From Dehalococcoidia bacterium (lineage in GTDB: Bacteria; Chloroflexota; Dehalococcoidia; Lucifugimonadales; UBA3495), in assembly GCA_003523055.1 (NCBI GenBank), contig DPHC01000002.1, positions 392,933 through 456,932 on the forward strand: a DNA stretch of 64,000 bases. Direction: 5' to 3'. Made by a program: the position numbers and the translations under genes. The notes beneath the pieces are model-generated. The model was given only the letters and a program-made list of their open reading frames with translations, did no database searches and had not been told where the DNA came from. Positions 8,412 through 50,092 of the stretch are shown one piece after another; the stretch's first letter is position 1; each line of letters opens with the position of its first letter.

Positions 8412-8414
8412 TTA

Positions 8415-10328
8415 TTAATAACTCACAAATAACCATGTAATAGACATTGCTAGAAAGCCAAGTGTCATCAATCCAAGATACACATATATCTTGCCTGTAA
8501 TATGATATCTCAACAAACTACCAATCATGCTAACAGCATATGCAGGGCCATTGATACCTTTATCATTAACAAATACTCTATCTAAAAACGAAACCAGTCT
8601 AGATAAGGGCATCATTATCTTATCGACACATAGTTGAAAAAATTCATCAATATAATACTTGTTTTTGATCAATTTTATAGGACTTGCTAAAACTGTTTTT
8701 ATTGTCGTAAATATACCTAATTTCTTACTATATGCTAAATATCCTATAGCAAAGGAAGCTAAAGTCACGATTAATGCTATCACAGCTATAACTGGATCCA
8801 AATGAAATTTTTCGGGATGTCCATAATACAAAAACATCCCAAAACTATGGTAAATTCCTGGCATATAAATCGCTAACCAGCCAAATGTGAATACTATTAA
8901 TGCCAAAACCACCAATGGCCATATCATTACAACAGGTAATTTATGTGCATCAGTATAATCAGACCTACTTGTTCCGAAGAATGGAATCAAAACCAATCTA
9001 ATCATATATAACCCACTGATAAACACTAGCAGCATGGTTAAAATCACAAATACAATTCCTCTATTATTTACAACTGACACCAGAATTTCGTCTTTGCTCC
9101 AAAACCCAGACAATAATGGGATTCCTGCTAGTGACAGAGCTCCAATAATAAACAAGATTGTAGTAACAGGCATAATAGATTTTAAGTTTCCCATTTTGCT
9201 TATATCTAATTCTTCTATCGAATGCATTACGTTTCCTGCAGTTAGAAACAATAATGCTTTACTGAATCCATGCGCCAATAAATGTAATATGGCGGCCGTA
9301 TATCCAAAACATCCTAAACTTAAAAACATAAGTCCTAAATGGCTTATAGTAGAATATGCTAGGGCTCTTTTAAGGTCTATAGAAAATAAGCATATTAGAG
9401 CTGCTCCAATAGCTGTAGTTAATCCTATTACGGCAACAAACAACATCATGAAATCGGATGACACAAACAATGGATAAGTTCTAGCCACTAAATATACTCC
9501 AGCCGCAACCATAGTAGCCGCATGTATCAATGCGCTGACAGGAGTCGGGCCTTCCATGGCATCGGGCAACCATATATGAAATGGAAATTGCGCAGACTTG
9601 CCCATTGCACCTAAAAACAATAAGAATCCTATTACAGATATTAATGTTCCATTTAATTCTCCCGCATCGATAGCCGAAAACAAAGCAGACATGTTAAACG
9701 AACCCACGTTATACCAAATCAACAATATCCCTATCAGTAATCCTACATCTCCAATTCTAGTAACTGTAAAGGCTTTTTTAGCAGCCTCTTTGGCTGAGGG
9801 CAATTCATACCAAAATCCTATTAATAGATACGAGCATAAACCAACTAATTCCCAAGCGATATACAGTAACAGAAAGTTATCTGCTAGTACTAATATCAAC
9901 ATTGAAGAGATAAATAACGCTTGAACGGAATAATACCATCCAAATCTAGGGTCATTTTTCATGTATCCTATCGAGTATATTTGTACCATCAACGCAACCA
10001 CTATTCCTAATCCCGCAACTGCTAAACTAAGAGGGTCAATCACAAAGCCCAAAGAGGTATCTAGAAAGTCAGCTCCCGGTACTCCAGCCATAAACCAATT
10101 AATTGCATAATGGCAACTGATGGAACCAGTAAACACATCATGTAAACAATTATCATAATATGAACCAACTATCACATATTCCAATAAAGCCCAACAATAT
10201 ATTATTAACCCTATTCCTATTGCGAAAACAGGAATAATCCAAGCCTTCTGCTGAGTTACTCGTGAGAACACAATAGTGACCGGAAAAGCAATCAAGCTAA
10301 TAACAGGTATTAACCAAAAATAAACCAC
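8415..10328 (-). CDS. nuoL: NADH-quinone oxidoreductase subunit L
   Basis: 637 aa, the longest antiporter-like subunit (FPFHIWLPDAMEGPTPVSALIHAATMV) with a C-terminal extension, positioned after nuoK. Confidence 0.9.
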   Translation of the reverse strand: MVYFWLIPVISLIAFPVTIVFSRVTQQKAWIIPVFAIGIGLIIYCWALLEYVIVGSYYDNCLHDVFTGSISCHYAINWFMAGVPGADFLDTSLGFVIDPLSLAVAGLGIVVALMVQIYSIGYMKNDPRFGWYYSVQALFISSMLILVLADNFLLLYIAWELVGLCSYLLIGFWYELPSAKEAAKKAFTVTRIGDVGLLIGILLIWYNVGSFNMSALFSAIDAGELNGTLISVIGFLLFLGAMGKSAQFPFHIWLPDAMEGPTPVSALIHAATMVAAGVYLVARTYPLFVSSDFMMLFVAVIGLTTAIGAALICLFSIDLKRALAYSTISHLGLMFLSLGCFGYTAAILHLLAHGFSKALLFLTAGNVMHSIEELDISKMGNLKSIMPVTTILFIIGALSLAGIPLLSGFWSKDEILVSVVNNRGIVFVILTMLLVFISGLYMIRLVLIPFFGTSRSDYTDAHKLPVVMIWPLVVLALIVFTFGWLAIYMPGIYHSFGMFLYYGHPEKFHLDPVIAVIALIVTLASFAIGYLAYSKKLGIFTTIKTVLASPIKLIKNKYYIDEFFQLCVDKIMMPLSRLVSFLDRVFVNDKGINGPAYAVSMIGSLLRYHITGKIYVYLGLMTLGFLAMSITWLFVSY

Positions 10329-10370
10329 GTTAATGCAATCCTTTCGTTATGTTAAGTTCGCTCATGATAA

Positions 10371-10691
10371 CTACCATCTCATTAAATCAAATTCATCCAC
10401 ATTTACTGAAGACTTATTTTTAAATATTCTTAATACCAACGCCAAGGCCAATCCTACTTCTGCCGCTGCAATTGTAATAATAAATATTGCAATTATATGA
10501 CCATCAAAATTAGAGAACATACCACTGCCTTCATGTACTGCAGCAGCAGCTACAAAATTGATATTAACCGCATTCAGCATCAATTCTATGGCCATGATTA
10601 TCAAAATTGCACTTCTTCTGGACAGAACTCCGTAAAGACCAATTCCAAACAACAACACACTCAGTATATTAATATAGAACAAAGGAACCAT
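10371..10691 (-). CDS. nuoK: NADH-quinone oxidoreductase subunit K
   Basis: 106 aa, three-helix small membrane subunit (MAIELMLNAVNINFVA), in operon position. Confidence 0.88.
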   Translation of the reverse strand: MVPLFYINILSVLLFGIGLYGVLSRRSAILIIMAIELMLNAVNINFVAAAAVHEGSGMFSNFDGHIIAIFIITIAAAEVGLALALVLRIFKNKSSVNVDEFDLMRW

Positions 10692-11186
10692 TTAATTGTC
10701 TCCTTTGTCTGATCTTGCGATAACTATTGCTCCGATAAGGGCGACCAACAATACCAAAGATGCCAGTTCAAAAGGTATAGCCCAAGTCGTAAACAAAGAA
10801 GTTCCCAATTCTTGAACAGTGGCTTCTTGTATCATGTCAGGTTGTATCGGATAAGTTTTATAATATGCTGCAGATAATGTGACCATAACAGAAATTGCTA
10901 TAACTCCCGCTATAGGCCAAAGTTTATGATTGCTAATTCTGGGATAGTCATCATTACGAGTTAGCATCAAGGCAAACAATATCACTATAACTATAGCTCC
11001 ACCATATATCAATAATTGAACTACAGCCAAAAATTCTGTTAATAATACTAAGTAAATGCCAGATACGCTTAATAAAGCAATTAAAAGAGACAATGCTGCA
11101 TGAATAATGTTTTTTGAAAGGACTACTCCTAAAGAGCAACCTAGCAACACAATTGAGATTAAAATAAATACAATAAAATGCATCAT
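10692..11186 (-). CDS. nuoJ: NADH-quinone oxidoreductase subunit J
   Basis: 164 aa membrane subunit, abuts nuoK with no gap, in operon position. Confidence 0.82.
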   Translation of the reverse strand: MMHFIVFILISIVLLGCSLGVVLSKNIIHAALSLLIALLSVSGIYLVLLTEFLAVVQLLIYGGAIVIVILFALMLTRNDDYPRISNHKLWPIAGVIAISVMVTLSAAYYKTYPIQPDMIQEATVQELGTSLFTTWAIPFELASLVLLVALIGAIVIARSDKGDN

Positions 11187-11254
11187 CTACAATTGCACGT
11201 TGTAATAATTAATTTGTGATTTATGTAACAACATAACTTCCTATTTGTATTTTA

Positions 11255-11731
11255 TTAAGATTCAGATGACGGAGTCCAATTAGTTTCTTTTTGATACTTT
11301 TCACCCATTTCAAGCAATACATCAAGTTTCACTCTACTTCCGTCTCTAGTAGTGCCACTTTCTTCGTGTTCGTGGGTCATAACTATTGCATCAAAATTGC
11401 AAACATCTACGCAAATCCCACATAATATACACCTGTTTAAGTTTATCTCAAAGATATCAACAATCTTTCTACGTTTTGTAAGTTGTTGCTCAAATTTAGG
11501 GTTGTCCTTCATAGTAGCAGTCATGCATTGAGTAGGGCAATTTCTAATACAAACCATACATCCAGTACAGAAAGGTTCTTCAACTTTACTATCCCATGTT
11601 AATCCAGGAAAACCCATGAATTTATCTTGCAAAACAGTAGGGTTCTCAGGATATTGCTTTGTAACTGGTTTACGTAATCCTTGTAATGTTGATGCAAGGG
11701 TTTGCATCATTCCTTTTACACTACTTAACAT
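11255..11731 (-). CDS. nuoI: NADH-quinone oxidoreductase subunit I (2x[4Fe-4S] ferredoxin-type)
   Basis: 158 aa with two cluster motifs, CTGCMVCIRNCP and CILCGICVDVCNFDA. Confidence 0.9.
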   Translation of the reverse strand: MLSSVKGMMQTLASTLQGLRKPVTKQYPENPTVLQDKFMGFPGLTWDSKVEEPFCTGCMVCIRNCPTQCMTATMKDNPKFEQQLTKRRKIVDIFEINLNRCILCGICVDVCNFDAIVMTHEHEESGTTRDGSRVKLDVLLEMGEKYQKETNWTPSSES

Positions 11732-11743
11732 TATAATCTCTCT

Positions 11744-12856
11744 TTATTTATTCTCAGATATTTGAAGTCTTGCAATTACTTCAGCGACTTTTTTGGCAGG
11801 GGCGGTAATATGTCTATAAATAACATATCCTACCACTCCTAATCCTACTATTGACATGATACTTAGTACCCACCACGGGAATCCATAAAAAACACACACT
11901 GCAGAAACTAAAACGGAATAAAATGATAATGGAACCATCACTTTCCAAGCAAAGGCCATTAATTGGTCAATTCTCAATCTAGGCAAAGATCCTCGAATCC
12001 AAAATATAACCAAAATAACTATATATACTTTCAGAAGGAGCCATACTATTCCAGGTAATATAGGGCCGGCCCATCCACCTAAAAACAGTAAAACTGTTAG
12101 AGTCGCTATCGCAAACGTGTTTATATATTCTGACAAGAAAAACACTGCCCAATGAGCTCCACTATATTCTACAAACGGGCCCCCAACTATTTCTGATTCC
12201 GCAAAGTAAATGTCAAAAGGAGTTCTCCCAACTTCAGCCAATCCAGCAACAAAAAACACAACTAGAGCTAAAGGGTGAATTAATGCAAATGGTACCGGAT
12301 GTTGTAAATTAACAATCTCTATTAAGTTAAATGTTTGAGTCAATATGGCTATTGAAACTAAAATCATTATCAAAGGTATTTCATAACTTATCAGCTGCGC
12401 AGCTGCTCTCAATCCACCTATGACACCATATTTATTAGCAGATCCCCACCCTGCTAATACTAATCCTAAAATTCCTAAAACTCCCACAGCACCTATATAA
12501 AACAATCCCATGTTTTCTAAATTTTCAACTACAATATCAGGTGTGAATGGAATTGTGACCCATAGCATAAAAGAAGATATAACTACTATAATAGGCGCCA
12601 TCCAAAAAATAACACGTTCTGATTCATTAGGAATGATATCTTCTTTCAAAACTAATTTCACAGCATCTGCTATAGGTTGCAGTAATCCAAACGGACCAGT
12701 CCTAGTAGGGCCAAGTCGTAGTTGTAGCCTACCTAACGCTTTGCGTTCTAACCACACGAGAGATAAAACGATCACCGCTAGAAACGAAAACAATATGAGC
12801 AGATCCATCAGTCTGGTAATTCCATATTGAACAGTAAACATTGATAATAAGTTCAT
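11744..12856 (-). CDS. nuoH: NADH-quinone oxidoreductase subunit H
   Basis: 370 aa polytopic protein containing RLQLRLGPTRTGPFGLLQPIADAVKL and EVGRTPFD, both typical of NuoH/ND1. Its ATG overlaps the nuoD TGA (ATGA). Confidence 0.92.
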   Translation of the reverse strand: MNLLSMFTVQYGITRLMDLLILFSFLAVIVLSLVWLERKALGRLQLRLGPTRTGPFGLLQPIADAVKLVLKEDIIPNESERVIFWMAPIIVVISSFMLWVTIPFTPDIVVENLENMGLFYIGAVGVLGILGLVLAGWGSANKYGVIGGLRAAAQLISYEIPLIMILVSIAILTQTFNLIEIVNLQHPVPFALIHPLALVVFFVAGLAEVGRTPFDIYFAESEIVGGPFVEYSGAHWAVFFLSEYINTFAIATLTVLLFLGGWAGPILPGIVWLLLKVYIVILVIFWIRGSLPRLRIDQLMAFAWKVMVPLSFYSVLVSAVCVFYGFPWWVLSIMSIVGLGVVGYVIYRHITAPAKKVAEVIARLQISENK

Positions 12857-13968
12857 CTGTCGACTTCTCCAAGAACTATATCCAATGAACCCAATATGAC
12901 TACTGAATCAGCAATCCATGCATCTTTTAGCATTACCTGGAGAGCCGATAAATTGCAAAATGACGGAGGCCTAACTTTAAGTCTATATGGTTTATCTGTT
13001 CCATCACTTATTAAGTATATTCCTATTTCACCTCTTGGATTTTCAGCTTTTACATACACTTCACCTTTAGGAGGTCTGATAAGTCTTCTTCCTAAAGGTG
13101 ACTCCACAGATCCTTGAGGAAGTTTGTTTATAGCTTGTTCAACTATTCTAAGTGATTCATGCATTTCCTGAACTCTGACCCAATGTCTATCCCAACAATC
13201 TCCATCCAATCCAATCGGTATATCAAATTCAAATTGATTGTAAATGGAATATGGCTCTGTTTTTCTCACATCATAACTAACACCTGAACCTCGTAAGCAT
13301 GGTCCAGTGAGTCCAAAGTCAATAGCTGCTTCTTTATTAATTACTCCTATTCCTTTCGTGCGACTTAAAAATATTTCATTAAATGTTAATAGTTTTTCTG
13401 TTTCATCTATGTCACGTTTGATTAATGGAATTATTTTGTTAACAGACGAAACAAAATCAGCAGGCACATCCTCTCGTAATCCTCCAATTTTGAAATAGTT
13501 ATGCATCATTCGGGCACCTGAGATAGATTCAAAAAGAGTTTGGATTCTGTCTCTTCCAATAAATGAATATAAGGCTGGAGTCATAGCCCCAGCATCCAAT
13601 CCAATAGTTCCAACATACAAAAGATGGCTTGCTATCCGATTCAATTCAGACAATATAACTCGAACATATTCTGTTCTTTCTGAAACTTCTATATCCAGTA
13701 ATTTTTCAACTGCCCTGCAATATATAAATTCATTATTGAAATTTGCCAAGTAATCGAGCCTATCAAACAAAGTCACTACTTGATGATATTGCTCCCCTTC
13801 ACTTAGTTTTTCAGAGCCTCTATGTAGATATCCAATATGTGGGGTAACATCAATGATTTTCTCTCCATCAATTCTAAGCTCCATTCTAAAAACACCATGG
13901 GTAGAAGGATGCTGCGGGCCCATGTTCAGCATCATGTCAACGGTTTGTCCGTTATTATCATGTATCAT
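12853..13968 (-). CDS. nuoD: NADH-quinone oxidoreductase subunit D
   Basis: 371 aa. Contains NMGPQHPSTHGV and ends in the family-typical GEVDR followed by TGA. Confidence 0.95.
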   Translation of the reverse strand: MIHDNNGQTVDMMLNMGPQHPSTHGVFRMELRIDGEKIIDVTPHIGYLHRGSEKLSEGEQYHQVVTLFDRLDYLANFNNEFIYCRAVEKLLDIEVSERTEYVRVILSELNRIASHLLYVGTIGLDAGAMTPALYSFIGRDRIQTLFESISGARMMHNYFKIGGLREDVPADFVSSVNKIIPLIKRDIDETEKLLTFNEIFLSRTKGIGVINKEAAIDFGLTGPCLRGSGVSYDVRKTEPYSIYNQFEFDIPIGLDGDCWDRHWVRVQEMHESLRIVEQAINKLPQGSVESPLGRRLIRPPKGEVYVKAENPRGEIGIYLISDGTDKPYRLKVRPPSFCNLSALQVMLKDAWIADSVVILGSLDIVLGEVDR

Positions 13969-13994
13969 AAGTAAAATAAACCTGAAAAGTTAAT

Positions 13995-14504
13995 TTAAAA
14001 TTCATCATATTCGTAAAATGGGTAATCTTTCCGCCCTGGATATCCTTCGAATCCTTCATAAAGTAAAAGGGGAGACATATCTTCATTACCGTCAAATAAA
14101 ATACCATACAAATCATGGATTTCGCGCTCATACCAATTTGCAGCAGCCCATATATTTGCAACAGAATCAATGCTTTGGTCATAATTTAAATTGGATTTAA
14201 TGACCAACGTCTCATTATTATTTAAGGAATAAATAATATATACGATTTGAGCATAGTCTTCATAATCAACACCAGCCATACATAACAGCATTTGGCCATC
14301 AATCGTAGGATCATTCTTAATAAATGAGCAGATGTGGTTCACGTCTCCCGAGCCTACTAACATTGTAGGTATGCCATCAGTCAAAGAGAATGTCAAATTA
14401 TCAAAATTTTTATAATTTGACATGGCATTCTTGAGGGATAAAACGCCTGGATCATTAACAGAAATATCTTGTATTTCTTCTTCTGCAGGAGTATCACTAT
14501 CCAT
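13995..14504 (-). CDS. nuoC: NADH-quinone oxidoreductase subunit C
   Basis: 169 aa. Contains [14 protein letters not shown], typical of the NuoC/30-kDa subunit. Overlaps nuoB by 8 nt. Confidence 0.85.
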
Positions 14505-15027
14505 TAGACTTGGAATCCTTCATGATTTTGTCTTGTAATTTTGTTATTCCATAAAGAAGGGCTTCTGGCCGAGGAGGGCATCCAGGAACATATATATCAA
14601 CTGGAATTATGTGGTCTACTCCCATAACTACTGAGTAAGATTTGTAGTATGGGCCTCCATTAGTAGCACAGCTTCCCATCGCTATAACCCATTTAGGTTC
14701 AGGCATTTGTTCATATAACAATCTAATTGGTTCTTCCATTTTTCTCACCACGGTTCCAGCTACTATCATTACATCCGATTGCCGTGGAGAAGGCCAAGTT
14801 ACTACTCCGAATCTATCTAAATCATAATGAGACATATAAGTTGACATCATTTCGATAGCGCAGCACGCAAGGCCAAAACTCAGAGTCCATAAGGACGATT
14901 TTCTTGCCATACCAAACAATTGTTCTTTAGTAGTAGTAATTACTCCTGGTACTTTTGATCCTAACAAACTATCAAATCTGCTTTTACCAGGTTGATTCCC
15001 CAATTGTGGGTTAATTATTTCTGCCAT
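14497..15027 (-). CDS. nuoB: NADH-quinone oxidoreductase subunit B
   Basis: 176 aa. N2-cluster cysteines lie in [20 protein letters not shown] and PGCPPRPE. Confidence 0.95.
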
Positions 15028-15395
15028 TCAAAAACACCTTTTCTCCAGCCATAAAATATCGCGAAAAACAAGATGAATAAAAACATCATCATTGCATAAA
15101 ATGGCAATACATTACCTAATTCTTTTTGTGCAAGGAACACTAGAGCCCACGGAAAAAGGAAAACTGCTTCTACATCAAATATCAAAAATAAAATTCCGAA
15201 AATATAAAATCGGAAATTTATATTTGCCCAAAAAAATCCTGTACTAGGTATGCCACATTCATATGTAGTCAATTTTAAACTAGATTTTCTTCTTGAACTA
15301 AATAAAAATGAAGCTACAAATAATCCCATAATAGCTCCACCTCCCACTATTACGGACAATCCAACAGAAAACCAATCATTAATGAACGCTTCCAT
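15015..15395 (-). CDS. nuoA: NADH-quinone oxidoreductase subunit A
   Basis: 126 aa, three-helix protein containing YECGIPS and FLIFDVE. First gene of the operon; overlaps nuoB by 13 nt. Confidence 0.85.
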
Positions 15396-36985: not shown

Positions 36986-36987
36986 GA

Positions 36988-37797: not shown

Positions 37798-37966
37798 ATT
37801 ATTCAACATAGAGCAATTAAAGTGGGAATATTTCCTATCAGGAGGAGAAGATCGGCAAAAACGGAGTCTCCCAAGATCGATTTCTATTATAGATATAAGT
37901 AAATGGAAAGAAATGACTCCATCTAACAATGTCAAATTCAATTTTTCAACAAATTGATCTATTCTA

Positions 37967-40968: not shown

Positions 40969-41685
40969 CTATTCTTTCCAAAATCTTTCTTCAATGAAAT
41001 TCCATCCTTCTGATACTACATCTTCACGAACGTATTCAATCATACCAGGATGACCACATGCATAGACATAGGTTGATTGTTTCGAGAGTTTATTGATATT
41101 CAACTGGTCTTTAACGATGCTATTCACCCTACCAACATTGCCTAACCAGCCATCATTTCTTGAGTCATCAGGTCGGCTTATAGTGGGGATAAAATTCACC
41201 GTATTAGGAAAGTTCCGTGACAAATGAAATAATTCTTGGTCATAACACAATTCATCTTGGTAACTAGCACCCAATAAGACATAAAAAACTTTCTCTGAGC
41301 TGGAAGGTTGGTTTAAATAATCTCTTATCATACTTATGTACGGTGAAACGCCCGTCACTGTTGCAACCATTACATGGTGAGTGTACTCATTTTTCAAGAT
41401 AAATATACCTTTTGCTCTAGGTCGTAAGGAAACTTTATCTCCTAAATTTAATTTCCATATTTTAGGCGTCAATTCTCCATCAGGTACAAGTTCAATAAAA
41501 ATTTCTATCGTCTGTTCAAATGGTGCTGAAGCTATTGAATAAGCTCGTTCTATTCCATCTATACCTAGAGTGCAATACTGGCCAGGTTTAAAAGTAAATT
41601 GATTTTGTTCACATCTAAGAGTTATAACCATAAGATCTTCAGTTATTTTTTTTCTAGAAATTAACTGAGCCGTTGGAAGATTCAC
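40969..41685 (-). CDS. Ferredoxin-NADP+ reductase-type FAD/NAD(P)-binding oxidoreductase
   Basis: 238 aa. FAD motif RAYSIAS, NAD(P)-domain MVATVTGVSP and C-terminal YACGHPGM. Starts 6 nt after the NuoG/FdsA-like gene. Confidence 0.8.
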   Translation of the reverse strand: MNLPTAQLISRKKITEDLMVITLRCEQNQFTFKPGQYCTLGIDGIERAYSIASAPFEQTIEIFIELVPDGELTPKIWKLNLGDKVSLRPRAKGIFILKNEYTHHVMVATVTGVSPYISMIRDYLNQPSSSEKVFYVLLGASYQDELCYDQELFHLSRNFPNTVNFIPTISRPDDSRNDGWLGNVGRVNSIVKDQLNINKLSKQSTYVYACGHPGMIEYVREDVVSEGWNFIEERFWKE

Positions 41686-41691
41686 AGTTCT

Positions 41692-44520
41692 TTATCTCCT
41701 TTTGCTTATATTAGCAACAAGCACTTTTAATCCAGGGACATCAGACATAGGATCTATATTTTCACTATTTTGTAATTCGATCGCTAATTGCCCAAACAAA
41801 GAAGTAGTAGATAGAACACCTGAGGGAATTTTCTCATTAATTCTGACGGTGCCATTCATTTTTTGATTACTTGTTGTAACTGTAATTTTATCACCCTCAT
41901 TAATCAATAATTCTTTAGCAGAAGATACATTTAACTCAAATACATCTGGACGATGTATATAATTCTGATCACTTTCTTCTATTATTTTCATAGAGTTGCT
42001 TGAAGAGAACAAAACTCTCCCTTGGACCAACAACAAATCTGCAGTATTACAATCATTGACTTCGTTTACATTCACATCTGGAACGTACACACAAAAATGA
42101 GTTTCTACGCCTGGTGAGAATAGCTGGGAAGATCCATAAGGATTAGCGGTGCCAGCGGCAGGCCATTGCATACCATTACTTTCATAGCTAGCATATAGTT
42201 CTTGTGTAGGTTTAGGAGTATCATACCCTGATCTAAATACTAATTTTACATTTTTATCTAGAATTTCATATGAAATCCCTTCATATATATTGCACACTTC
42301 GGATATCTCGTCCATAACCGCAGATTCATTCTCAAAATTAAAACCGTCTAACGACCACAATTTTGCCAATTCGCTGGCAACCCATATTTCTGACTTGGCT
42401 TCATTGTTTTTAACAGGCATTACTTCTGAAAATTTTTGCACTCTTCTTTCTATATTTGTAAGAGTCCCAGATTTTTCAGCGAAAGTCAGTCTTGGAAGAA
42501 CCACATCTGCAATATCAGTCAATTGAGTTTCAAAACTATCTTGCACTACTAAGAAATCTAATTCTTGTAGCTGATTTGCTAAAAACCTCATCGAATCATC
42601 TGATTCAACTGGCAAATCTCCTATAACCATCATTTTTTTTATGCTTCCATCTGACACAGACACACCAAGGTTTCTAACGGGAATACCTGACTGGCTTGAT
42701 ATCTCAATTCCCCATTTATGTTTCAGTGTTTCAGCAGCTGTCTTATCTTCTACAAAACTACCTCCGGGCAATCTGTTTGGCATGCATCCCACATCTTGAG
42801 CACCTTGTTCATTAGCACCATATCGCATAGGGTATATGCCCGAACCAATTGTATTAATATTATCTGTAATTAGTGTCAAGTTAGTTAAATTTGCTACAAC
42901 ATAATCTGATATAGCATGCGAAATGGTGTCTAAGGAATATATAATTGATGCTGTATCAGATTGTGTTAACAATTGAGCGACACTCAATAAATCAGACTCG
43001 TCCACTTCTGTCGTACTGCAAATTTGAGAAAGATCTAAATTTTGGACATACAAACATAATTCATCTATATTTTTGATCGTATCGCGTAAGTTAGGAATAT
43101 CAATCAAATCATTATCAAACATCAATTTCATAATACCCAGCAATACCATATTTTCACTGCCAGGACGAGGCCTAATCCAAACATCGCTATGGCGAGTCAA
43201 TTCCACTTCTCTTACATCGATTACGATTAATTTAGCTCCGGATTTTATTGCTTTCTTTATGGGCAGAGATATGACATTTTGTTGTTCTGTAATGTTAGCG
43301 TTAAAGACTAATACACATTCAGATTTTGAAATGTCCCAAATAGATCCGGTTGCAGCCCCCATTCCTATCATTTTTTGCAAATTATCAGTCAATTCTGGGT
43401 GTATATTAGTAGATTGATCTATATTATTGGTTCCCATCTGCATCCTGACTAATTTTTGCCATATGTATAATTCTTCATTAGTGCTATCTTTAGCAGCTAG
43501 CAAAGCAAAATCCTCTTTGGAGCTTACGTTTAACTTATCTGATATTAATTTTAAAGCCTCTTCCCAGCTAACTTTTGCTAATTTTCCGTCTTTACGTATC
43601 ATTGGATGACGAATTCTTGAGGTAGAATTTACAAAATCCAGACCAAATTTCCCTCTAAAACAGGCTTGTCCATGATTTACTGGAGAATCTAATTCAGGCA
43701 CTACTCTAATCATTCGTCCAAATTCATTTAATTCAAAGTTCATCTGGCAACCAACAGGACATTGAGTACAAATAGTTTTTTTGATTTCTCGCGGTTTTTC
43801 CCATTTGTTTTCTCTTTCTACTAGGGCACCTACTGGGCACACATCTAAGCAAGCCCCACAAAATTCACAACCCGATTCTAATAAAGAAGACCCAAATGAA
43901 GTTCCTACTAATGCTCTGCCTCCTCGTTCAACAAACGTAATTGCGGAGTCTCCTCGTATTTCTTCGCAGACTCTGACACATCTTCCGCAAGTTATACATA
44001 AATTATAGTCCCTATCATAGAAAGGGTCTTTAATTTCTAGTGGAATCTCTTTATATTTATAGTCTAAATGGGATTCCAATTCCATCCCTAAATATCTCAC
44101 AGTATCTTTAAATTCACACCTTTCATTTTTGGGACAGGTTATACATCTGTCATTAACTGACACGTGCCTCAAGCAAACATCGCCTGGGCCGCAAATATCG
44201 ATACGGTGGCACGTCAAGCATCCATTTGGATGTTCTGCTATCATCATTTCTATTATGGATTTTCTAAGTTCATTTACCTCAGGAACATTATTGTTGATTA
44301 TCATTCCATCTTGAACTGGCAGTGTGCATGATGCTGGTGTTCCTCGGCCATCAACTACAGACACAACACAAGTACGACAAGCTCCAAAAGGTTTCATGCC
44401 AGGGTGATAGCACAAGTAAGGAATATATATGCCAGCGTCTATAGCGGCTTCCAATACCATTTTACCTGGTTCTGTTTTTACTTCTTGACCATCAATAGTA
44501 ATAGTTATTTCGTCTGGCAT
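41692..44520 (-). CDS. NuoG/FdsA-like Fe-S subunit with a molybdopterin-oxidoreductase-type C-terminal domain; the FDH Mo-ligand Cys/Sec appears to be absent
   Basis: 942 aa. N-terminal 2Fe-2S ferredoxin region (CYHPGMKPFGACRTC), 4Fe-4S motifs (CITCGRCVRVC, CEFCGACLDVCPVGA), MopB 4Fe-4S (CTQCPVGC...C) and a C-terminal MopB beta-barrel-like tail. The segment GTNNIDQSTNIHPEL aligns by eye with FDH GTNNVDCCARV[U/C]HGPS, placing Ile at the ligand position. Confidence 0.8.
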   Translation of the reverse strand: MPDEITITIDGQEVKTEPGKMVLEAAIDAGIYIPYLCYHPGMKPFGACRTCVVSVVDGRGTPASCTLPVQDGMIINNNVPEVNELRKSIIEMMIAEHPNGCLTCHRIDICGPGDVCLRHVSVNDRCITCPKNERCEFKDTVRYLGMELESHLDYKYKEIPLEIKDPFYDRDYNLCITCGRCVRVCEEIRGDSAITFVERGGRALVGTSFGSSLLESGCEFCGACLDVCPVGALVERENKWEKPREIKKTICTQCPVGCQMNFELNEFGRMIRVVPELDSPVNHGQACFRGKFGLDFVNSTSRIRHPMIRKDGKLAKVSWEEALKLISDKLNVSSKEDFALLAAKDSTNEELYIWQKLVRMQMGTNNIDQSTNIHPELTDNLQKMIGMGAATGSIWDISKSECVLVFNANITEQQNVISLPIKKAIKSGAKLIVIDVREVELTRHSDVWIRPRPGSENMVLLGIMKLMFDNDLIDIPNLRDTIKNIDELCLYVQNLDLSQICSTTEVDESDLLSVAQLLTQSDTASIIYSLDTISHAISDYVVANLTNLTLITDNINTIGSGIYPMRYGANEQGAQDVGCMPNRLPGGSFVEDKTAAETLKHKWGIEISSQSGIPVRNLGVSVSDGSIKKMMVIGDLPVESDDSMRFLANQLQELDFLVVQDSFETQLTDIADVVLPRLTFAEKSGTLTNIERRVQKFSEVMPVKNNEAKSEIWVASELAKLWSLDGFNFENESAVMDEISEVCNIYEGISYEILDKNVKLVFRSGYDTPKPTQELYASYESNGMQWPAAGTANPYGSSQLFSPGVETHFCVYVPDVNVNEVNDCNTADLLLVQGRVLFSSSNSMKIIEESDQNYIHRPDVFELNVSSAKELLINEGDKITVTTSNQKMNGTVRINEKIPSGVLSTTSLFGQLAIELQNSENIDPMSDVPGLKVLVANISKRR

Positions 44521-44532
44521 GTTAACTCCATA

Positions 44533-46254
44533 TTATCTTCTTGTACGTTTAGGAGAAAATCTTTTTTTATTGCATACTTTAGTTAGGCAAGTATGTCCAA
44601 TTATATGTTGATTAAACTCTTCGGAAAAATATTTAATGGCAGAAGCTACTGGATTAAAACCAAGCTGACCGTGGCCACACAATGAACCAGCTTGCATATT
44701 TTCTCCTATACTCCTCATAAGGTCCAAATCTTCTTCAGTTCCTTCTAAATCGCAGATACGCTCTAACACTTCTAAGAGGTGACTCATTCCCATTCGGCAC
44801 GGGAAACATTTACCGCAAGATTCATATTGGCAAAATGCTATTAGTGAACGAGTTAAATCCACAATACAAGTCCGTTCATCTGCTGCAATGATGCCTCCGG
44901 ATCCCAAAATCGCTCCAGCATTTCTAAAAGACTCGTAATCTAGGATCAGATCTATGTTATCGGCATTCAAGACTCCACCCAGCGGGCCTCCAGTTTGAAC
45001 TAACTTTAAATTCCTACCTTCTGGGATTCCTCCAGCAAGATCAAACAATATATCTTTTAAATTAAGCCCCATTGGAACTTCTATCATACCTGTTCGGTTC
45101 AGAGAGCCTGACAAACATAAAATAGCGGTACCTTTGCTTTGCTCATATCCAATTTCTGAAAACCATTGGCCTCCCTTTCTGACTATTTCAGGGACGTACG
45201 ACAAAGTTTTTACATTATTGATATTAGTTGGCTTCCCAAACACTCCTACTTGTGCAGGGAACGGTGGCCTATATCTCGGCATAGCTCGTTTCCCTTCTAT
45301 AGCTTCCATCAGTGCCGTTTCTTCTCCTGCGACGTATGAATCTCCAGTTAACGCAATTTCTAGGTCAAATGAGAAATCTGTGCCTAGTATATTTGTTCCC
45401 AATAAACCTTTTTCATATGCTTGCTTTACTGCGGTTTTAGCTCTTTCAATTGGTCCATCATGTCCATGCCTTATGAATATATATCCTCTGTTTGAATTAG
45501 TCGCATAGCCTGCAAGAGCAATGCCTTCTACGACTGTATGTGGGTCACTTTCTAATATTCCTTTATCATTAAAAGCTCCAGGGTCTCCTTCCTCGCAATT
45601 ACATAGAATATATTTATCCTTAGCAGGATTAGAGGCTAAGAAGCTCCATTTTACTCCTGTAGCAAATGCCGCTCCTCCTCTTCCTCTCAATCCAGATTCT
45701 TTTACTTCGTTGAGAGTAGACTCAGGATCCAATTCGAACAATGCCCGATTCAAAGCATAGTATCCTCCATTGGATATGTATTGATCGATATCATACGGGT
45801 CAATATTACCGGCATTCCTCAACGAGATCCGTAATTCTTTAGATTTCATCGGGTGATCTTCTAACTTAGTTACACCTTCTAATTCCATATCACCGCTATA
45901 TAAAAAAACGTGCTTATTGGGGATTTGGTTATCAATAATATGAGACTGTATAATATCCTCAAGGTTATCTTCGGATACGTTATTATAGAAAATTCTATTT
46001 CCACCTGGCATCTGAATATCTAATAAAGGTTCTGCAAAACATAAACCTATGCATCCAACTTCACTGACGTTGGCTTGGATACCTAACATCTCTAAGCAGT
46101 TGGAAATAGAATTATATATTTGCTTACTTCCTGCAGCTTCTCCACACAGAGCAGTACCTATTCTGATCCATGGTAATTCACCTTGGTTCAGGTGATTCCA
46201 TTTTTCTTGCGCCTGTGCAGATATTTTCTTAAATGAGTCAGTCTCTACTACCAC
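44533..46254 (-). CDS. NuoF/FdsB-like NADH-binding FMN / 4Fe-4S subunit with an N-terminal extension
   Basis: 573 aa. GRGGAAF occurs at about residue 190. N3-cluster cysteines lie in ESCGKCFPCR and SLCGHGQ. The roughly 120-aa N-terminal extension contains Cys residues (GTALCGEA, CIGLCFAEP). Confidence 0.88.
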   Translation of the reverse strand: MVVETDSFKKISAQAQEKWNHLNQGELPWIRIGTALCGEAAGSKQIYNSISNCLEMLGIQANVSEVGCIGLCFAEPLLDIQMPGGNRIFYNNVSEDNLEDIIQSHIIDNQIPNKHVFLYSGDMELEGVTKLEDHPMKSKELRISLRNAGNIDPYDIDQYISNGGYYALNRALFELDPESTLNEVKESGLRGRGGAAFATGVKWSFLASNPAKDKYILCNCEEGDPGAFNDKGILESDPHTVVEGIALAGYATNSNRGYIFIRHGHDGPIERAKTAVKQAYEKGLLGTNILGTDFSFDLEIALTGDSYVAGEETALMEAIEGKRAMPRYRPPFPAQVGVFGKPTNINNVKTLSYVPEIVRKGGQWFSEIGYEQSKGTAILCLSGSLNRTGMIEVPMGLNLKDILFDLAGGIPEGRNLKLVQTGGPLGGVLNADNIDLILDYESFRNAGAILGSGGIIAADERTCIVDLTRSLIAFCQYESCGKCFPCRMGMSHLLEVLERICDLEGTEEDLDLMRSIGENMQAGSLCGHGQLGFNPVASAIKYFSEEFNQHIIGHTCLTKVCNKKRFSPKRTRR

Positions 46255-46299
46255 AAGCTATCCTAAAAACCTTTCCAATGTATGTTCCAGTGTGATCAT

Positions 46300-46761
46300 T
46301 TACTTTAATCCTTCAATTTTATTTTTCAACAAGGATTTTGTAACACGCCCTATTAAATGATGATCAATCGCTACAACAGGGGCCTGCGCACATGCTCCTA
46401 AGCATGTGTTAAAGCCTAATTCTATTTCTCCATTTTGAGTTCGACCTTCTTCAGTTATATCCAAAGATTCAAAAGCTTCTTCAAAAATTTCCATAGCACC
46501 AGCAATATGACATGTCGGGCCCCAACATATTTCTATATTACACTTAGCAGGTTCTTCGAATTTGAAGTTTGGGTAGAAAGAAGCAACTGCCCACACGTCA
46601 TTTACAGTTGTATTGGGAATTTCTAAAGAAACAACTTCCATTGATTCCTTAGGTATGTAACCTATTTTATCTTGTATTGCCAATAATGATGACAATACAG
46701 TTTTGGTGGGTTGTTCTTGGCTACGAACGGCATTTGTGATAGCAGTGGTAAGCACATCCAT
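46300..46761 (-). CDS. NuoE/FdsG-like thioredoxin-like [2Fe-2S] subunit
   Basis: 153 aa. 2Fe-2S ligand pairs are CWGPTCHIAG and CLGACAQAP. Confidence 0.88.
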   Translation of the reverse strand: MDVLTTAITNAVRSQEQPTKTVLSSLLAIQDKIGYIPKESMEVVSLEIPNTTVNDVWAVASFYPNFKFEEPAKCNIEICWGPTCHIAGAMEIFEEAFESLDITEEGRTQNGEIELGFNTCLGACAQAPVVAIDHHLIGRVTKSLLKNKIEGLK

Positions 46762-48973: not shown

Positions 48974-50092
48974 TTACATTTTTGATGCCAGTTTAGATTT
49001 TTTCTTGAAGTGAGGTATTACGTATTTGTCAAAAAGTCTGAGAGTCTCCATAACTTCTTGATGAGAAACTGGCCCAACCTGGAATAATGGCATGATTTCA
49101 TCTATTCCTAAAGATTCATATTTTTCGAGGTATTTTATGCAATCATCTGGGTCACCCATACAGAATCTATCACCCTCATTCAAAAGATCCATCGATGTAA
49201 CTTCATCTTTTCGGGCGGTATCAATCTTGGTAGCTCTATCATAATGCCACTTGTAATCTTCAGGGACATCAGAAGCAGAATATCCTTCCCATACCTTTGA
49301 ATCTCTCACTTTCTGTTGATACCTGTACCAATCTATAAGTTCAGCGCTACGTTCTTTTGCCTTTTTACCATCCTCCGAACAATAAGCTACTGTGCTTCCT
49401 GAAATTTTGTTTGTGATAACTTTACTAATTGGGTTAGGAGACAAGCTAGCCTTACGGTAAATTTCAATTAATTTTTCTGTTCGGTCTATACCGATACTGG
49501 TTTGCGTTAAGCATCCTAATCCTTGAGTACCCGCTTTTTCGAATGTGAGTTCTTGAGAACAAGCTTGCCAAATGGGAGGGTGCGGGCTTTGCACTGGCTT
49601 TGGAATTACTTCTCTTTCTCCTATATTGAAGTAATTACCTTGGTATGAAAAAACTTCATCAGTCCAAGCCTTTGGAATTATATCAAGGGTTTCTTCTACG
49701 ATATTTGTAGCATCTTTCAAATCTCTATCAAATGGTAACATTTGATAAGGATATCCAGATCTGCCAATACCTACATCCACTCTACCATGGCTCAATATAT
49801 CTAACGTAGCCATTCTAACTGCAGTATGTAAAGGGTGATGTAATGGTGGCAAAACTGCAGCTATACCTAGTCTTATGTTTTGTGTTCTTTGGCTTATAGC
49901 TGCCAATGCTAAATCTGGCGCGCTCGCATGGGACCATTCTGATCTAAAATGATGTTCAACAAACCAGACCGTACTCATTCCAATTTCATCTGCGTATGAA
50001 ACTTGCTCCAACATTTGGTGATACTTCTCCGATTCACTCTCACTATTCCAAGGTTTCGGAACTTGTATTTGATAAAAAAGCCCTATATCCAT
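48974..50092 (-). CDS. LLM-class (luciferase-like) flavin-dependent oxidoreductase/monooxygenase
   Basis: 372 aa. N-terminal pattern YADEIGMSTVWFVEHHF and LDILSHGRVDVGIGRS, typical of luciferase-like monooxygenases. Confidence 0.85.
   Translation of the reverse strand: MDIGLFYQIQVPKPWNSESESEKYHQMLEQVSYADEIGMSTVWFVEHHFRSEWSHASAPDLALAAISQRTQNIRLGIAAVLPPLHHPLHTAVRMATLDILSHGRVDVGIGRSGYPYQMLPFDRDLKDATNIVEETLDIIPKAWTDEVFSYQGNYFNIGEREVIPKPVQSPHPPIWQACSQELTFEKAGTQGLGCLTQTSIGIDRTEKLIEIYRKASLSPNPISKVITNKISGSTVAYCSEDGKKAKERSAELIDWYRYQQKVRDSKVWEGYSASDVPEDYKWHYDRATKIDTARKDEVTSMDLLNEGDRFCMGDPDDCIKYLEKYESLGIDEIMPLFQVGPVSHQEVMETLRLFDKYVIPHFKKKSKLASKM

What the first reader, a model, noticed from the sequence alone, without database searches (positions are those of the whole stretch)
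40969..46761. FdsGBA/NuoEFG-like trio whose large subunit appears to lack the Mo-ligand Cys/Sec, in an operon with an FNR-type reductase
Four co-directional genes are separated by 6 to 45 nt:
- A NuoE-like [2Fe-2S] subunit.
- A NuoF-like subunit carrying a roughly 120-aa Cys-containing N-terminal extension (GRGGAAF at about residue 190).
- A 942-aa NuoG/FDH-alpha-like protein.
- A 238-aa RxYS-type ferredoxin-NADP+ reductase.

The large subunit keeps the full MopB-type domain plus the C-terminal barrel, as in soluble NAD-dependent formate dehydrogenases. By-eye alignment of GTNNIDQSTNIHPEL with GTNNVDCCARV[U/C]HGPS puts Ile where the Mo-coordinating Cys/Sec should be. That implies a non-catalytic, electron-conduit role. 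Adding an NADP(H)/ferredoxin-type flavoenzyme to an NADH-binding flavoprotein and Fe-S wire suggests one of two things. It could be a detachable N-module for the 11-subunit complex I, or a soluble NADH-NADP+/ferredoxin electron-exchange complex.
Basis: partly seen in the sequence, partly recalled or inferred. Interest (0 to 1): 0.55.

Follow-up and report, generated by a model that had tools for sequence, protein, structure and literature searches.

The report
Complex I NADH module, FDH-like NuoG
Three adjacent genes in a marine Dehalococcoidia (SAR202-type) genome most likely encode the NADH-oxidising head of respiratory complex I, whose large subunit is a formate-dehydrogenase look-alike that has lost its metal-binding cysteine; databases label it "formate dehydrogenase" or leave NuoG "missing".

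Summary
On the minus strand lie a NuoE-like gene, a NuoF-like gene with a 145-aa N-terminal domain, a 942-aa FdsA/NuoG-like gene and a 238-aa Fpr-type FNR gene, separated by 45, 12 and 6 nt.

Alignment with E. coli FdhF, E. coli NuoG and a bona fide FdsA shows no Cys/Sec at the Mo-ligand position. This one-residue loss is fixed in all 120 closest homologues and in a sister clade.

All Fe-S ligands are kept, including the bridging cluster that canonical NuoG has lost. A conserved extra 4-Cys insertion is also present.

The E-F-G trio is invariant in about 105 related loci. The FNR gene follows it in 67 of 75 loci of one clade. It is deleted in six, and in the sister clade a thioredoxin gene sits there instead. 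No fdhD, fdsD or mobA gene is nearby.

The window, and one complete relative on a single contig, carry both the trio and an 11-gene nuo operon lacking nuoEFG; two further relatives' nuo operons also lack it.

Best reading (about 0.6): this is the detached N-module of complex I with an FDH-derived NuoG, and the FNR is a frequent but dispensable neighbour. It would explain the "missing NuoG" in Chloroflexi and probably some "formate dehydrogenase" calls in SAR202.

It is a new variant of a known kind, of moderate interest.

The parts
46300..46761 (-). NuoE/FdsG/HydC-like [2Fe-2S] subunit (153 aa)
   Evidence: Pfam 2Fe-2S_thioredx, 1e-29. The ligands C79, C84, C120 and C124 are kept in 71 of 71 orthologues. 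The best PDB matches are NfnC and HydC, then NuoE/Nqo2. The score is below the NCBIfam NuoE cut-off (90 against 142 bits).
44533..46254 (-). NuoF/FdsB-like FMN and NADH-binding subunit (573 aa) with an N-terminal thioredoxin-like domain and no C-terminal ferredoxin domain
   Evidence: Pfam Complex1_51K and NADH_4Fe-4S. GLRGRGGAAF and the N3 ligands C480, C483, C486 and C526 are invariant in 73 of 73 orthologues. The N-terminal Cys triad (C37, C68, C72) is kept in most of clade 1, partly lost in one subclade and fully lost in the sister clade. The protein ends where the 2x[4Fe-4S] domain of HydB begins.
41692..44520 (-). FdsA-fold, NuoG-equivalent large Fe-S subunit (942 aa) without a Mo-ligand Cys/Sec
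   Evidence: Sequence and domain evidence. AF2 model with pLDDT 80-96 over the MopB part. Foldseek ranks cytoplasmic FDHs above NuoG.
43390..43434 (-). Degenerate active-site segment GTNNIDQSTNIHPEL (residues 363-377). Ile373, or a one-residue gap, replaces Sec140/Cys.
   Evidence: Translation checked. Alignments. Family-wide loss.
44116..44232 (-). Canonical His-ligated cluster motif (H97, C101, C104, C110) followed by a 25-aa insertion carrying invariant C116, H119, C126, C129 and C135. This is probably one extra Fe-S cluster.
   Evidence: Translation. The residues are invariant in alignments A1 and A2. The insertion is absent from FdsA and E. coli NuoG and is widespread in uncharacterised homologues.
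43660..43998 (-). 8-Cys 2x[4Fe-4S] ferredoxin domain (C175-C228) and the FS0/N7-type cluster (C251, C254, C258, C287)
   Evidence: Translation. All of these Cys are kept in 41 of 41 family members. E. coli NuoG keeps only 3+1 Cys in the first domain.
40969..41685 (-). Fpr-type ferredoxin/flavodoxin-NADP+ reductase (238 aa). It is a frequent neighbour and is not shown to be a subunit.
   Evidence: Pfam FAD_binding_6 and NAD_binding_1. The best PDB match is E. coli flavodoxin reductase 1FDR, 2e-16. RxYS, S170-R171, G-R186 and the C-terminal EERFWKE are conserved. It is adjacent in 67 of 75 clade-1 loci and absent in 6.
5428..15395 (-). 11-gene nuoA-B-C-D-H-I-J-K-L-M-N operon without nuoEFG. This is the presumed membrane and Q-module partner, 26 kb away.
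   Evidence: Pfam on each ORF. The same 11-gene layout is found in relatives L110, L112 and L113.

Best explanation
The E-F-G trio is the NADH-dehydrogenase (N) module of respiratory complex I in this group of aerobic marine Dehalococcoidia. It is encoded apart from the 11-gene nuoABCDHIJKLMN operon.

Proposed mechanism:
- NADH is oxidised at the FMN of the NuoF-like subunit.
- Electrons pass through the N3-type [4Fe-4S] cluster into the large subunit (N1b, the His-ligated N5-type cluster and the N4-type cluster).
- From there they reach the NuoI/NuoB clusters and quinone.

The large subunit is a NuoG equivalent that descends from an FdsA-type formate dehydrogenase and is less eroded than canonical NuoG:
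- It has lost the Mo-ligand Cys and several motifs that are invariant in true FDHs, so it does not oxidise formate.
- It keeps the bridging cluster, the FS0/N7 cluster, the C-terminal cap domain and an extra Cys-rich insertion.

The Fpr-type FNR gene downstream is a separately functioning NADPH-dependent housekeeping reductase. It is often co-located, and in this streamlined genome probably co-transcribed, but it is not an obligate subunit.

Shown: the gene content, the cofactor-ligand conservation, the loss of the Cys, the synteny statistics, and the co-occurrence with an EFG-less nuo operon.
Inferred: docking onto the Q-module, the absence of Mo-bisPGD, and the independence of the FNR.
For: 1. 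The order E-F-G is conserved in 66 of 66 loci with enough upstream sequence. All NuoE, NuoF and NuoG-type cluster ligands and the FMN/NADH motif are invariant.

2. The ligand Cys is absent in every family member examined, as expected for a NuoG.

3. The window holds an 11-gene nuo operon without nuoEFG. The 3.92-Mb contig ERZ21830300:ctg717544c carries the same 11-gene operon at 0.80 Mb and E-F-G-FNR at 2.41 Mb. The nuo operons of two further relatives also lack EFG.

4. No fdhD, fdsD or mobA gene lies near any of about 105 loci, and there are no Moco genes in the 64-kb window. A genuine FdsA operon has fdsG-fdsB-mobA-fdsA-fdsD-fdhD.

5. Spero et al. [quoted passage not shown] Here pipelines name E and F as Nuo subunits but call G 'hypothetical' or 'formate dehydrogenase alpha'.

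6. Sewell et al. 2017 (PMC5736913) report a Chloroflexi genome with an 11-subunit Nuo plus nuoEFG in a separate operon.

7. The NuoF-like subunit lacks the C-terminal clusters that define bifurcating BfuB.

8. HydB-like flavoprotein modules are predicted from 14-gene operons to sit on complex I (Nuo-Bfu, predicted not demonstrated; PMC9304861). The HydB-like affinity of F is therefore no obstacle.
Against: - There is no physical or expression evidence of association with the membrane arm.
- The trio is never inside or next to a nuo operon in about 110 loci.
- E, F and G score below the NCBIfam NuoE, NuoF and NuoG cut-offs. They are closer to NfnC/HydC, to HydB-type flavoproteins and to FdsA respectively.
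- The MopB domains I-III keep 68% of FDH near-invariant residues, against 26% in E. coli NuoG. This conservation is unexplained if the domain is only ballast.
- An intact Fe-S branch to the former active site is kept.
- The FNR is adjacent in 89% of clade-1 loci, and it stays next to G more often than mutS does.
- I could not check whole genomes for a second nuoEFG set or for NDH-2.
Confidence: 0.6

Rival explanations
1. A soluble NAD(P)H-linked electron-exchange complex. E-F-G oxidises NADH and passes electrons down the retained Fe-S branch (bridging cluster to FS0) to a partner that docks at the former Mo site. That partner would be the FNR in this clade (NADH to NADP+/ferredoxin exchange), or thioredoxin or another acceptor in the sister clade. 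This would be a non-bifurcating analogue of StnABC/NfnABC.
For: - The FNR is adjacent in 67 of 75 clade-1 loci across 42-96% identity of G. It stays next to G where insertions separate it from mutS (L004, L020, L085, L090).
- The stop-start gap is 0-12 nt in the window's closest relatives.
- All ligands of the branch to FS0 are invariant, although canonical NuoG has lost the bridging cluster.
- E and F are most similar to subunits of NfnABC and HydABC.
- StnC/NfnA shows that an inactive FdhF-like domain can sit in an NADH/NADPH transhydrogenase (PMC10482914).
- In the sister clade, trxA follows G despite varying flanks, and it overlaps the stop codon in L102.
Against: - The FNR gene is cleanly deleted in six loci while the trio persists. 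In three of them (L017, L066, L069) G is followed by mutS after 122-348 nt.
- The sister clade has no FNR at the locus.
- mutS, HAD and DsbA are co-syntenic too, so gene order here is conserved without any functional link.
- Short gaps are the genome norm (median 14 nt).
- In Stn, the FdhF-like clusters C1 and C2 are reported not to take part in electron transfer.
- The adjacent trxA is a canonical WCGPC housekeeping thioredoxin.
- These aerobes would otherwise have an 11-subunit complex I with no known electron input.
Confidence: 0.2
2. A still-functional molybdo- or tungsto-pterin enzyme with non-canonical metal coordination (no protein ligand, as in arsenite oxidase). It would use NAD+ with a substrate other than formate, or formate by an altered mechanism.
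For: - The MopB domains I-III retain 68% of FDH near-invariant residues.
- His374 and Arg566 are present in this protein. The segment P-x-R-x-G-A-N-E-Q-G is highly conserved within clade 1.
- The FS0 cluster and the Lys/Arg next to it are kept.
- The AF2 model is confidently FDH-like.
Against: - The ligand residue is deleted in all members.
- His is Gln in 26 of 41 relatives.
- Arg is Phe, Ser or Tyr in the four more distant relatives aligned (P0122, P0123 and the sister-clade members P0124 and P0343).
- The residue equivalent to FdhF Gln335 is Gly in 41 of 41.
- The FDH-invariant motifs GxNPxxxHP and GxT(E/Q)HxxG are replaced by N-x-N-[IVL]-T-E-x-[QH]-N and D-x-I/V. That these motifs contact the pterin cofactor is from my memory and was not tested.
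- Domain IV keeps only 26-37% of the FDH invariants.
- No fdhD, fdsC, fdsD or mobA gene is near any locus.
Confidence: 0.1
3. A flavin-based electron-bifurcating Bfu-type enzyme (HydABC/NfnABC family) that couples NADH, ferredoxin and a third substrate.
For: The best PDB matches of F (9bov_B at 532 bits, and 7t2r_B, 8oh5_B and 9n5u_B) and of E (NfnC, HydC) are subunits of bifurcating enzymes.
Against: - F stops before the C-terminal 2x[4Fe-4S] domain. Orthologue lengths are 545-615 aa.
- The N-terminal [2Fe-2S] ligands are decaying across the family.
- Schut et al. 2022 define true BfuB by clusters B2-B5, which non-bifurcating homologues lack (PMC9304861).
- The organisms are aerobes with luciferase-like monooxygenases and a respiratory chain.
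Confidence: 0.03

Closest known systems
NuoEFG / Nqo2-1-3, the N-module of bacterial complex I (E. coli, Thermus thermophilus)
   Same: - Gene order E-F-G.
- The [2Fe-2S] cluster in E.
- FMN plus the N3 cluster in F.
- N1b, the His-ligated N5, N4 and N7-type clusters in G.
- A MopB-like C-terminal part with no Mo-ligand residue.
- Co-occurrence with nuoA-D and H-N.
   Different: - Encoded 26 kb to 1.6 Mb away from the nuo operon.
- F carries an N-terminal thioredoxin-like domain.
- G keeps the second [4Fe-4S] cluster of the ferredoxin domain, a 25-aa Cys-rich insertion and the cap domain, and keeps 68% of FDH-invariant MopB residues against 26% in E. coli NuoG.
- All three proteins fall below the NCBIfam Nuo cut-offs.
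FdsGBA, the soluble NAD+-dependent Mo-formate dehydrogenase (Rhodobacter capsulatus 6TG9, Cupriavidus necator, Novosphingobium plasmid operon L109)
   Same: - Same three-subunit architecture.
- Same domain order in the large subunit.
- These are the best sequence matches (E about 1e-113 to 1e-118). They rank among the top Foldseek hits, alongside ForCE1 and MeFDH1.
- An N-terminal thioredoxin-like domain on the flavoprotein.
   Different: - No Cys ligand.
- Degenerate FDH-invariant motifs, and domain IV is largely changed.
- The catalytic His and Arg are not conserved across the family.
- No fdsC/fdhD, fdsD or mobA neighbours.
- An extra Cys insertion.
- Only about 30% identity.
StnABC / NfnABC (Bfu-family transhydrogenases) and the predicted Nuo-Bfu of Geobacter
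   Same: - A HydB/HydC-like NADH module joined to a NuoG-like Fe-S subunit.
- That subunit has a catalytically inactive FdhF-like domain (PMC10482914).
- An NADP(H)-binding flavoprotein element is associated with it.
   Different: - There the NADPH site is a GltD-like domain fused into the large subunit, and the B subunit has the C-terminal clusters needed for bifurcation.
- Here the FNR is a separate Fpr-type protein of uncertain association, and the bifurcation hallmarks are missing.
E. coli Fpr (flavodoxin/ferredoxin-NADP+ reductase, 1FDR)
   Same: - A two-domain FNR fold of about 240-250 aa with no Fe-S domain.
- The RxYS FAD motif.
- Two of the three Arg residues that, by my recollection of E. 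coli Fpr, contact the 2'-phosphate of NADPH (SR171, GR186).
   Different: Only 63 bits, and 76 bits against the NCBIfam Fpr model whose cut-off is 390. It has a distinct conserved C-terminus, EERFWKE.

Membership tests
NAD+-dependent formate dehydrogenase FdsGBA | A Cys or Sec ligand to Mo/W in the alpha subunit (FdhF U140, FdsA Cys) | tested here: not met
   Ile373 or a gap lies opposite U140/Cys in two independent alignments. The residue is absent in 120 of 120 close homologues and 41 of 41 sampled.
NAD+-dependent formate dehydrogenase FdsGBA | The catalytic His (FdhF H141) and Arg (R333) pair | tested here: inconclusive
   The pair is present in the window protein (H374, R566). His is Gln in 26 of 41 relatives. 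Arg is Phe, Ser or Tyr in P0122, P0123, P0124 and P0343.
NAD+-dependent formate dehydrogenase FdsGBA | Motifs invariant in true FDHs: GxNPxxxHP, GxT(E/Q)HxxG, the residue equivalent to FdhF Gln335, and domain IV. Their role in pterin binding is from memory, not tested. | tested here: not met
   The motifs are replaced family-wide. Domain IV keeps 37% of FDH-invariant columns in this protein and 26% at the family level. Actual cofactor content is not testable here.
NAD+-dependent formate dehydrogenase FdsGBA | Accessory genes fdsC/fdhD and fdsD (often mobA) in the operon | tested here: not met
   tblastn with the Novosphingobium FdhD, FdsD and MobA proteins gives no hit in the window or in about 105 loci. 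Pfam annotation of the window finds none.
NAD+-dependent formate dehydrogenase FdsGBA | NCBIfam Fdh-alpha equivalog score | tested here: not met
   411.9 bits against a cut-off of 666.25.
Complex I N-module NuoEFG | The E-F-G trio with the N1a, FMN/N3, N1b, N4 and N5 (plus N7) ligands | tested here: met
   All ligands are invariant. The gene order is conserved in 66 of 66 loci.
Complex I N-module NuoEFG | A G subunit whose MopB-like domain has no metal ligand | tested here: met
Complex I N-module NuoEFG | A genome that encodes nuoA-D and H-N and needs an N-module | tested here: met
   The 11-gene operon is in the window. One 3.92-Mb contig of a relative carries both the operon and the trio. 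Whether another nuoEFG set exists elsewhere in the genome was not testable.
Complex I N-module NuoEFG | NCBIfam NuoE, NuoF and NuoG scores above the curated cut-offs | tested here: not met
   NuoE 90.3 against 142.4, NuoF 459.7 against 558.65, NuoG 316.9 against 470.05.
Complex I N-module NuoEFG | Physical association with NuoB/C/D/I and NADH:quinone activity | not testable with these tools
   This needs biochemistry or multimer modelling.
Bfu (electron-bifurcating HydABC/NfnABC) family | A BfuB subunit with the N-terminal [2Fe-2S] and the C-terminal 2x[4Fe-4S] clusters (B2-B5) | tested here: not met
   There is no C-terminal ferredoxin domain. The N-terminal Cys residues are variably lost. 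The definition is taken from PMC9304861.
Fpr-type ferredoxin/flavodoxin-NADP+ reductase (fourth gene) | FAD_binding_6 plus NAD_binding_1 with the RxYS motif | tested here: met
   The score is below the NCBIfam Fpr cut-off (75.9 against 390), so this is a family-level assignment only.

The most novel reading that the evidence does not exclude
The FDH-derived domain may not be ballast. The family keeps an unbroken Fe-S wire (bridging cluster plus FS0) to the former Mo site, plus an extra Cys-ligated cluster. The neighbouring NADPH-dependent FNR (or thioredoxin in the sister clade) could dock there. The SAR202-type N-module would then have a second, NADP(H)-linked port. It would act either as a dual NADH/NADPH input to complex I or as a non-bifurcating NADH/NADP(H) electron exchanger, built independently of Stn/Nfn.
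Probability: 0.1. Interest if true: 0.75.

Novelty: new variant of a known kind. Interest (0 to 1): 0.4.

Why it matters
1. It offers one explanation for two annotation puzzles in an abundant ocean lineage. Chloroflexi genomes are scored as lacking complex I because 'only NuoG is missing' (PMC4453560). SAR202 and sponge Chloroflexi are credited with 'formate dehydrogenase EC 1.2.1.2/1.2.1.43' (PMC5395668, PMC5864207, bioRxiv 328013). JGI names members of this family 'formate dehydrogenase (NADP+) alpha subunit'. If the family is a Cys-less NuoG equivalent, C1-oxidation inferences that rest on it should be rechecked and complex I should be scored complete. I could not verify which genes those papers used.

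2. The protein is a less-eroded stage between a soluble FdsA-type FDH and canonical NuoG. It may help reconstruct how complex I recruited its N-module, and it may show what the vestigial N7 branch once connected to.

Tried and rejected
- Genuine FDH: rejected on the ligand deletion, the degenerate motifs and the absence of accessory genes.
- Bifurcating Bfu enzyme: rejected because F lacks the C-terminal clusters and the N-terminal cluster site is decaying.
- Short intergenic gaps as operon evidence: rejected, because they are the norm in this window. Promoter and terminator scans were at or below the shuffled expectation.
- Searching PLSDB for a cultured Chloroflexi homologue (for example the Thermomicrobium megaplasmid): this found only FdsA proteins at about 30% identity. 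They were useful as references only.
- The extra Cys insertion as a family-specific marker: rejected, because it is widespread in uncharacterised FdsA/NuoG-like representatives, including some Cys-containing ones.
- The Lost City Chloroflexi focA-fdhA-nuoG-hoxFE cluster (PMC7117926): by its gene content it appears to be a different arrangement. I did not compare sequences.
- Supplementary tables of Spero et al. were not available.
- A search for respiratory-chain data on cultured SAR202 ('Lucifugimonas' plus NADH) found nothing.
- The rough NJ tree is not robust enough to place the family relative to NuoG and FdsA, so I make no claim from it beyond clade membership.

Full report
**1. What is there**

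The flagged interval holds four minus-strand ORFs at exactly the stated limits:
- 46761..46300, 153 aa.
- 46254..44533, 573 aa.
- 44520..41692, 942 aa.
- 41685..40969, 238 aa.

The gaps are 45, 12 and 6 nt. mutS follows after a further 39 nt.

- 153 aa: a thioredoxin-like [2Fe-2S] protein.
- 573 aa: a Complex1_51K / NADH_4Fe-4S flavoprotein.
- 942 aa: Fer2_4, a His-cluster motif, a 4Fe-4S dicluster, Molybdop_Fe4S4, Molybdopterin and Molydop_binding.
- 238 aa: FAD_binding_6 plus NAD_binding_1.

All four score below every NCBIfam equivalog cut-off:
- Fdh-alpha 412 against 666.
- NuoG 317 against 470.
- NuoF 460 against 559.
- NuoE 90 against 142.
- Fpr 76 against 390.

The exact proteins are NCBI HCG90726-HCG90729 from a marine Dehalococcoidia MAG. 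Pipelines name them 'ferredoxin--NADP reductase', 'hypothetical protein' (JGI: 'formate dehydrogenase alpha subunit'), 'NADH-quinone oxidoreductase subunit F', and 'hypothetical' or 'NuoE'.

**2. The ligand site**

The best solved relatives of the large subunit are FdsA-type NAD-dependent FDHs (9wxb_B at 1e-118, 6tg9_A at 3e-113). Complex I NuoG proteins come far behind, at 1e-41 to 1e-50.

I fetched three references: E. coli FdhF, E. coli NuoG, and a Novosphingobium FdsA that sits in a canonical fdsG-fdsB-mobA-fdsA-fdsD-fdhD operon. I aligned them with family members.
- FdhF Sec140 and the FdsA Cys align with Ile373. HMMER places a one-residue gap there instead.
- His141 aligns with His374.
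- Arg333 aligns with Arg566.
- Lys44 aligns with Arg289.

The missing Cys is a fixed family character. All 120 closest database homologues (50-96% identity, named Chloroflexi or Dehalococcoidia where named at all) read TNN[VI]DQ[TS]SN.[QH]PEL.

I compared the family with 13 Cys-containing FDH representatives.
- Kept: every Fe-S ligand. These are the 2Fe-2S ligands C37, C48, C51 and C65, eight Cys of the dicluster domain, and FS0 ligands C251, C254, C258 and C287.
- Changed: His is Gln in 26 of 41. The residue equivalent to Gln335 is Gly in 41 of 41.
- Changed: GxNPxxxHP is replaced by N-x-N-[IVL]-T-E-x-[QH]-N, and GxT(E/Q)HxxG by D-x-[IV].
- Changed: most domain-IV invariants.

Arg566 is Phe, Ser or Tyr in the four more distant relatives aligned (P0122, P0123 and the sister-clade members P0124 and P0343).

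I measured retention of FDH near-invariant columns:

| Region | Window protein | E. coli FdhF | E. coli NuoG |
|---|---|---|---|
| MopB domains I-III | 68% | 92% | 26% |
| Domain IV | 37% | 68% | 26% |

The protein is therefore intermediate between a true FDH and a canonical NuoG. An AF2 model is confident over the MopB part (pLDDT 80-96). Foldseek ranks cytoplasmic FDHs (TM about 0.65) ahead of NuoG (0.50-0.63).

**3. Features beyond the finding**

- E. coli NuoG has lost the second cluster of the ferredoxin domain (3+1 Cys). This family keeps all eight Cys. The Fe-S chain to the FS0/N7-type cluster is therefore potentially continuous, as in FdsA.
- Right after the canonical H97-x3-C-x2-C-x5-C motif lies a 25-aa insertion. 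It carries invariant C116, H119, C126, C129 and C135. It is absent from FdsA and E. coli NuoG, and it probably binds one more cluster.
- That insertion is not unique to this family. Many uncharacterised representatives have it.
- The N-terminal domain of the NuoF-like subunit aligns with the thioredoxin-like domain of HydB and FdsB. Its three Cys are kept in most of the window's clade, two are lost in one subclade, and all are lost in the sister clade.
- The NuoF-like protein ends where HydB's C-terminal 2x[4Fe-4S] domain begins.
- By the criteria of Schut et al. 2022 (true BfuB has clusters B2-B5; PMC9304861) this is not a bifurcating enzyme. This holds even though E and F are most similar to NfnC/HydC and to HydB-type proteins.

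**4. Synteny**

The data came from several sources:
- A scan of species-representative genomes gave 17 Dehalococcoidia MAG loci.
- A metagenome scan gave 80 marine loci at 42-96% identity.
- Exact-protein look-ups added more loci.

Results for non-identical loci:
- E and F precede G in 66 of 66.
- Of 75 loci with at least 1 kb downstream, the FNR lies within 400 nt of G in 67, farther away in 2, and is absent in 6.
- In three of the absent cases (L017, L066 and L069) G is followed directly by mutS after 122-348 nt.
- mutS is itself within 1.5 kb in 40 of 52.
- HAD and DsbA genes recur upstream.

Gene order in this lineage is thus conserved without functional linkage.

A sister clade (about 40% identical, 896-975 aa) has the same Cys-less motifs and the same insertion. 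There E-F-G is followed by a canonical WCGPC thioredoxin, with no FNR or mutS, in otherwise varying contexts. It shares an RNase III / DUF2298 neighbourhood with the window, which argues for orthology.

In the window itself the median same-strand gap is 14 nt, and 77% of gaps are 45 nt or less. The tight spacing of the four genes is therefore unremarkable. Promoter and terminator scans were uninformative.

No homologue of FdhD, FdsD or MobA occurs in the window or in any related locus. Pfam annotation of all the larger window ORFs (100 aa or more) found no Moco genes.

**5. Link to complex I**

The window contains nuoA, B, C, D, H, I, J, K, L, M and N at 5428-15395, with nothing between nuoD and nuoH.

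NuoD homologues at 72-83% identity come from the same group of organisms. Three of their contigs show the same 11-gene operon with the same flanks. One of them, the 3.92-Mb contig ERZ21830300:ctg717544c, also carries E-F-G-FNR-x-mutS, 1.6 Mb away.

No related locus has nuo membrane genes within 10 kb of the trio.

The literature fits:
- Spero et al. [quoted passage not shown]
- Sewell et al. 2017 mention a Chloroflexi genome with an 11-subunit Nuo plus nuoEFG in a separate operon.
- Moparthi and Hagerhall 2011 note that the C-terminal part of NuoG has normally lost all sequence conservation.
- Stn/Nfn enzymes show that inactive FdhF-like domains persist in NuoG-like subunits.

**6. Interpretation**

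The most economical reading is that E-F-G is the N-module of complex I in these aerobic Dehalococcoidia. Its NuoG equivalent derives from an FdsA-type FDH and is still recognisably FDH-like. This would explain why pipelines report NuoG as missing and FDH as present.

I put this at about 0.6. Association with the membrane arm is inferred, not shown. The strong conservation of the MopB part and of the Fe-S branch has no explanation under a pure 'ballast' view.

The rivals:
FNR adjacency is high and outlasts mutS adjacency. It is weakened by clean FNR deletions, by the FNR-less sister clade, and by the conserved but functionally unrelated neighbours.
- A pterin enzyme without a protein ligand is unlikely but not excluded (about 0.1).
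- A bifurcating enzyme is very unlikely (about 0.03).

**7. Novelty and value**

A Cys-less FDH-like large subunit in an NADH-dehydrogenase module is a known theme (NuoG, StnC/NfnA), and separately encoded nuoEFG has been noted. What I did not find described in my limited literature searches is this specific, abundant family. The homology searches returned thousands of related proteins. The family has the following traits:
- It keeps the FdsA wiring and the cap domain.
- It carries an extra Cys insertion.
- It is systematically annotated as formate dehydrogenase.

SAR202 and sponge-Chloroflexi papers cite formate dehydrogenase EC 1.2.1.2/1.2.1.43. JGI names family members 'formate dehydrogenase (NADP+) alpha subunit'. 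I could not verify that those papers relied on this gene, so this is a lead to check.

Overall this is a new variant of a known kind, of moderate interest.

Noticed in passing
window 44116-44190 (-), residues 111-135 of the large subunit: A 25-aa insertion directly after the canonical His-ligated cluster motif. It carries invariant C116, H119, C126, C129 and C135 (CxTCPKNERC), effectively a duplicated CxxCx5C motif. It probably binds an extra Fe-S cluster. It is absent from FdsA and E. coli NuoG but present in many uncharacterised FdsA/NuoG-like representatives, including some that keep the Mo-ligand Cys (P0130, P0143).
   Followed up: partly
L102 12720-13052, L104 12841-13170, L106 13013-13399, L105 14343-14717: In the sister clade of the family, a canonical WCGPC thioredoxin gene follows the large subunit. 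In L102 and L103 it overlaps the stop codon by 14 nt. The surrounding genes differ between loci. The reason for this linkage is unknown.
   Followed up: partly
L110 9415-9967, L112 9328-9931, L113 9413-9964: In relatives, two small ORFs (81-111 aa, with no Pfam hit or only a weak UPF0150 hit) sit between nuoC and nuoD in the 11-gene operon. The window has only a 26-nt gap there (13968-13995).
   Followed up: no
window 32457-35030 (+): An 857-aa ORF with no Pfam hit overlaps the end of the DUF2298 gene (30176-32536) by 80 nt. In sister-clade loci the gene after DUF2298 is a PMT_2-type glycosyltransferase, so this ORF may be a divergent member of that type.
   Followed up: no
representative proteins P0133 and P0125: Other FdsA-like representatives show other active-site variants. 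P0133 has ARLSH, with Ser in place of Cys/Sec. P0125 has RVCD, with Cys followed by Asp rather than His. The FdsA/NuoG-like superfamily in metagenomes contains many more ligand variants than Cys/Sec or nothing.
   Followed up: no
window 35279-40929 (-): The order mutS, ArsC-family gene (37967-38245), 145-aa ORF without a Pfam hit (36988-37425), mutL is conserved in distant relatives (L019, L021, L111). The two small genes are consistently wedged between the mismatch-repair genes.
   Followed up: no
window 26468-27694 (-) and 62449-63912 (+): Two PolyA_pol-family nucleotidyltransferase paralogues. One has the head domain only. The other has HD and tRNA_NucTran2_2 domains and looks like a CCA-adding enzyme.
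   Followed up: no
window 48974-50092 (-) and 53132-53968 (-): A luciferase-like flavin monooxygenase, a paralogue family noted as expanded in SAR202, and a SAM hydroxide adenosyltransferase (SAM_HAT_N/C, the chlorinase/fluorinase-related family).
   Followed up: no
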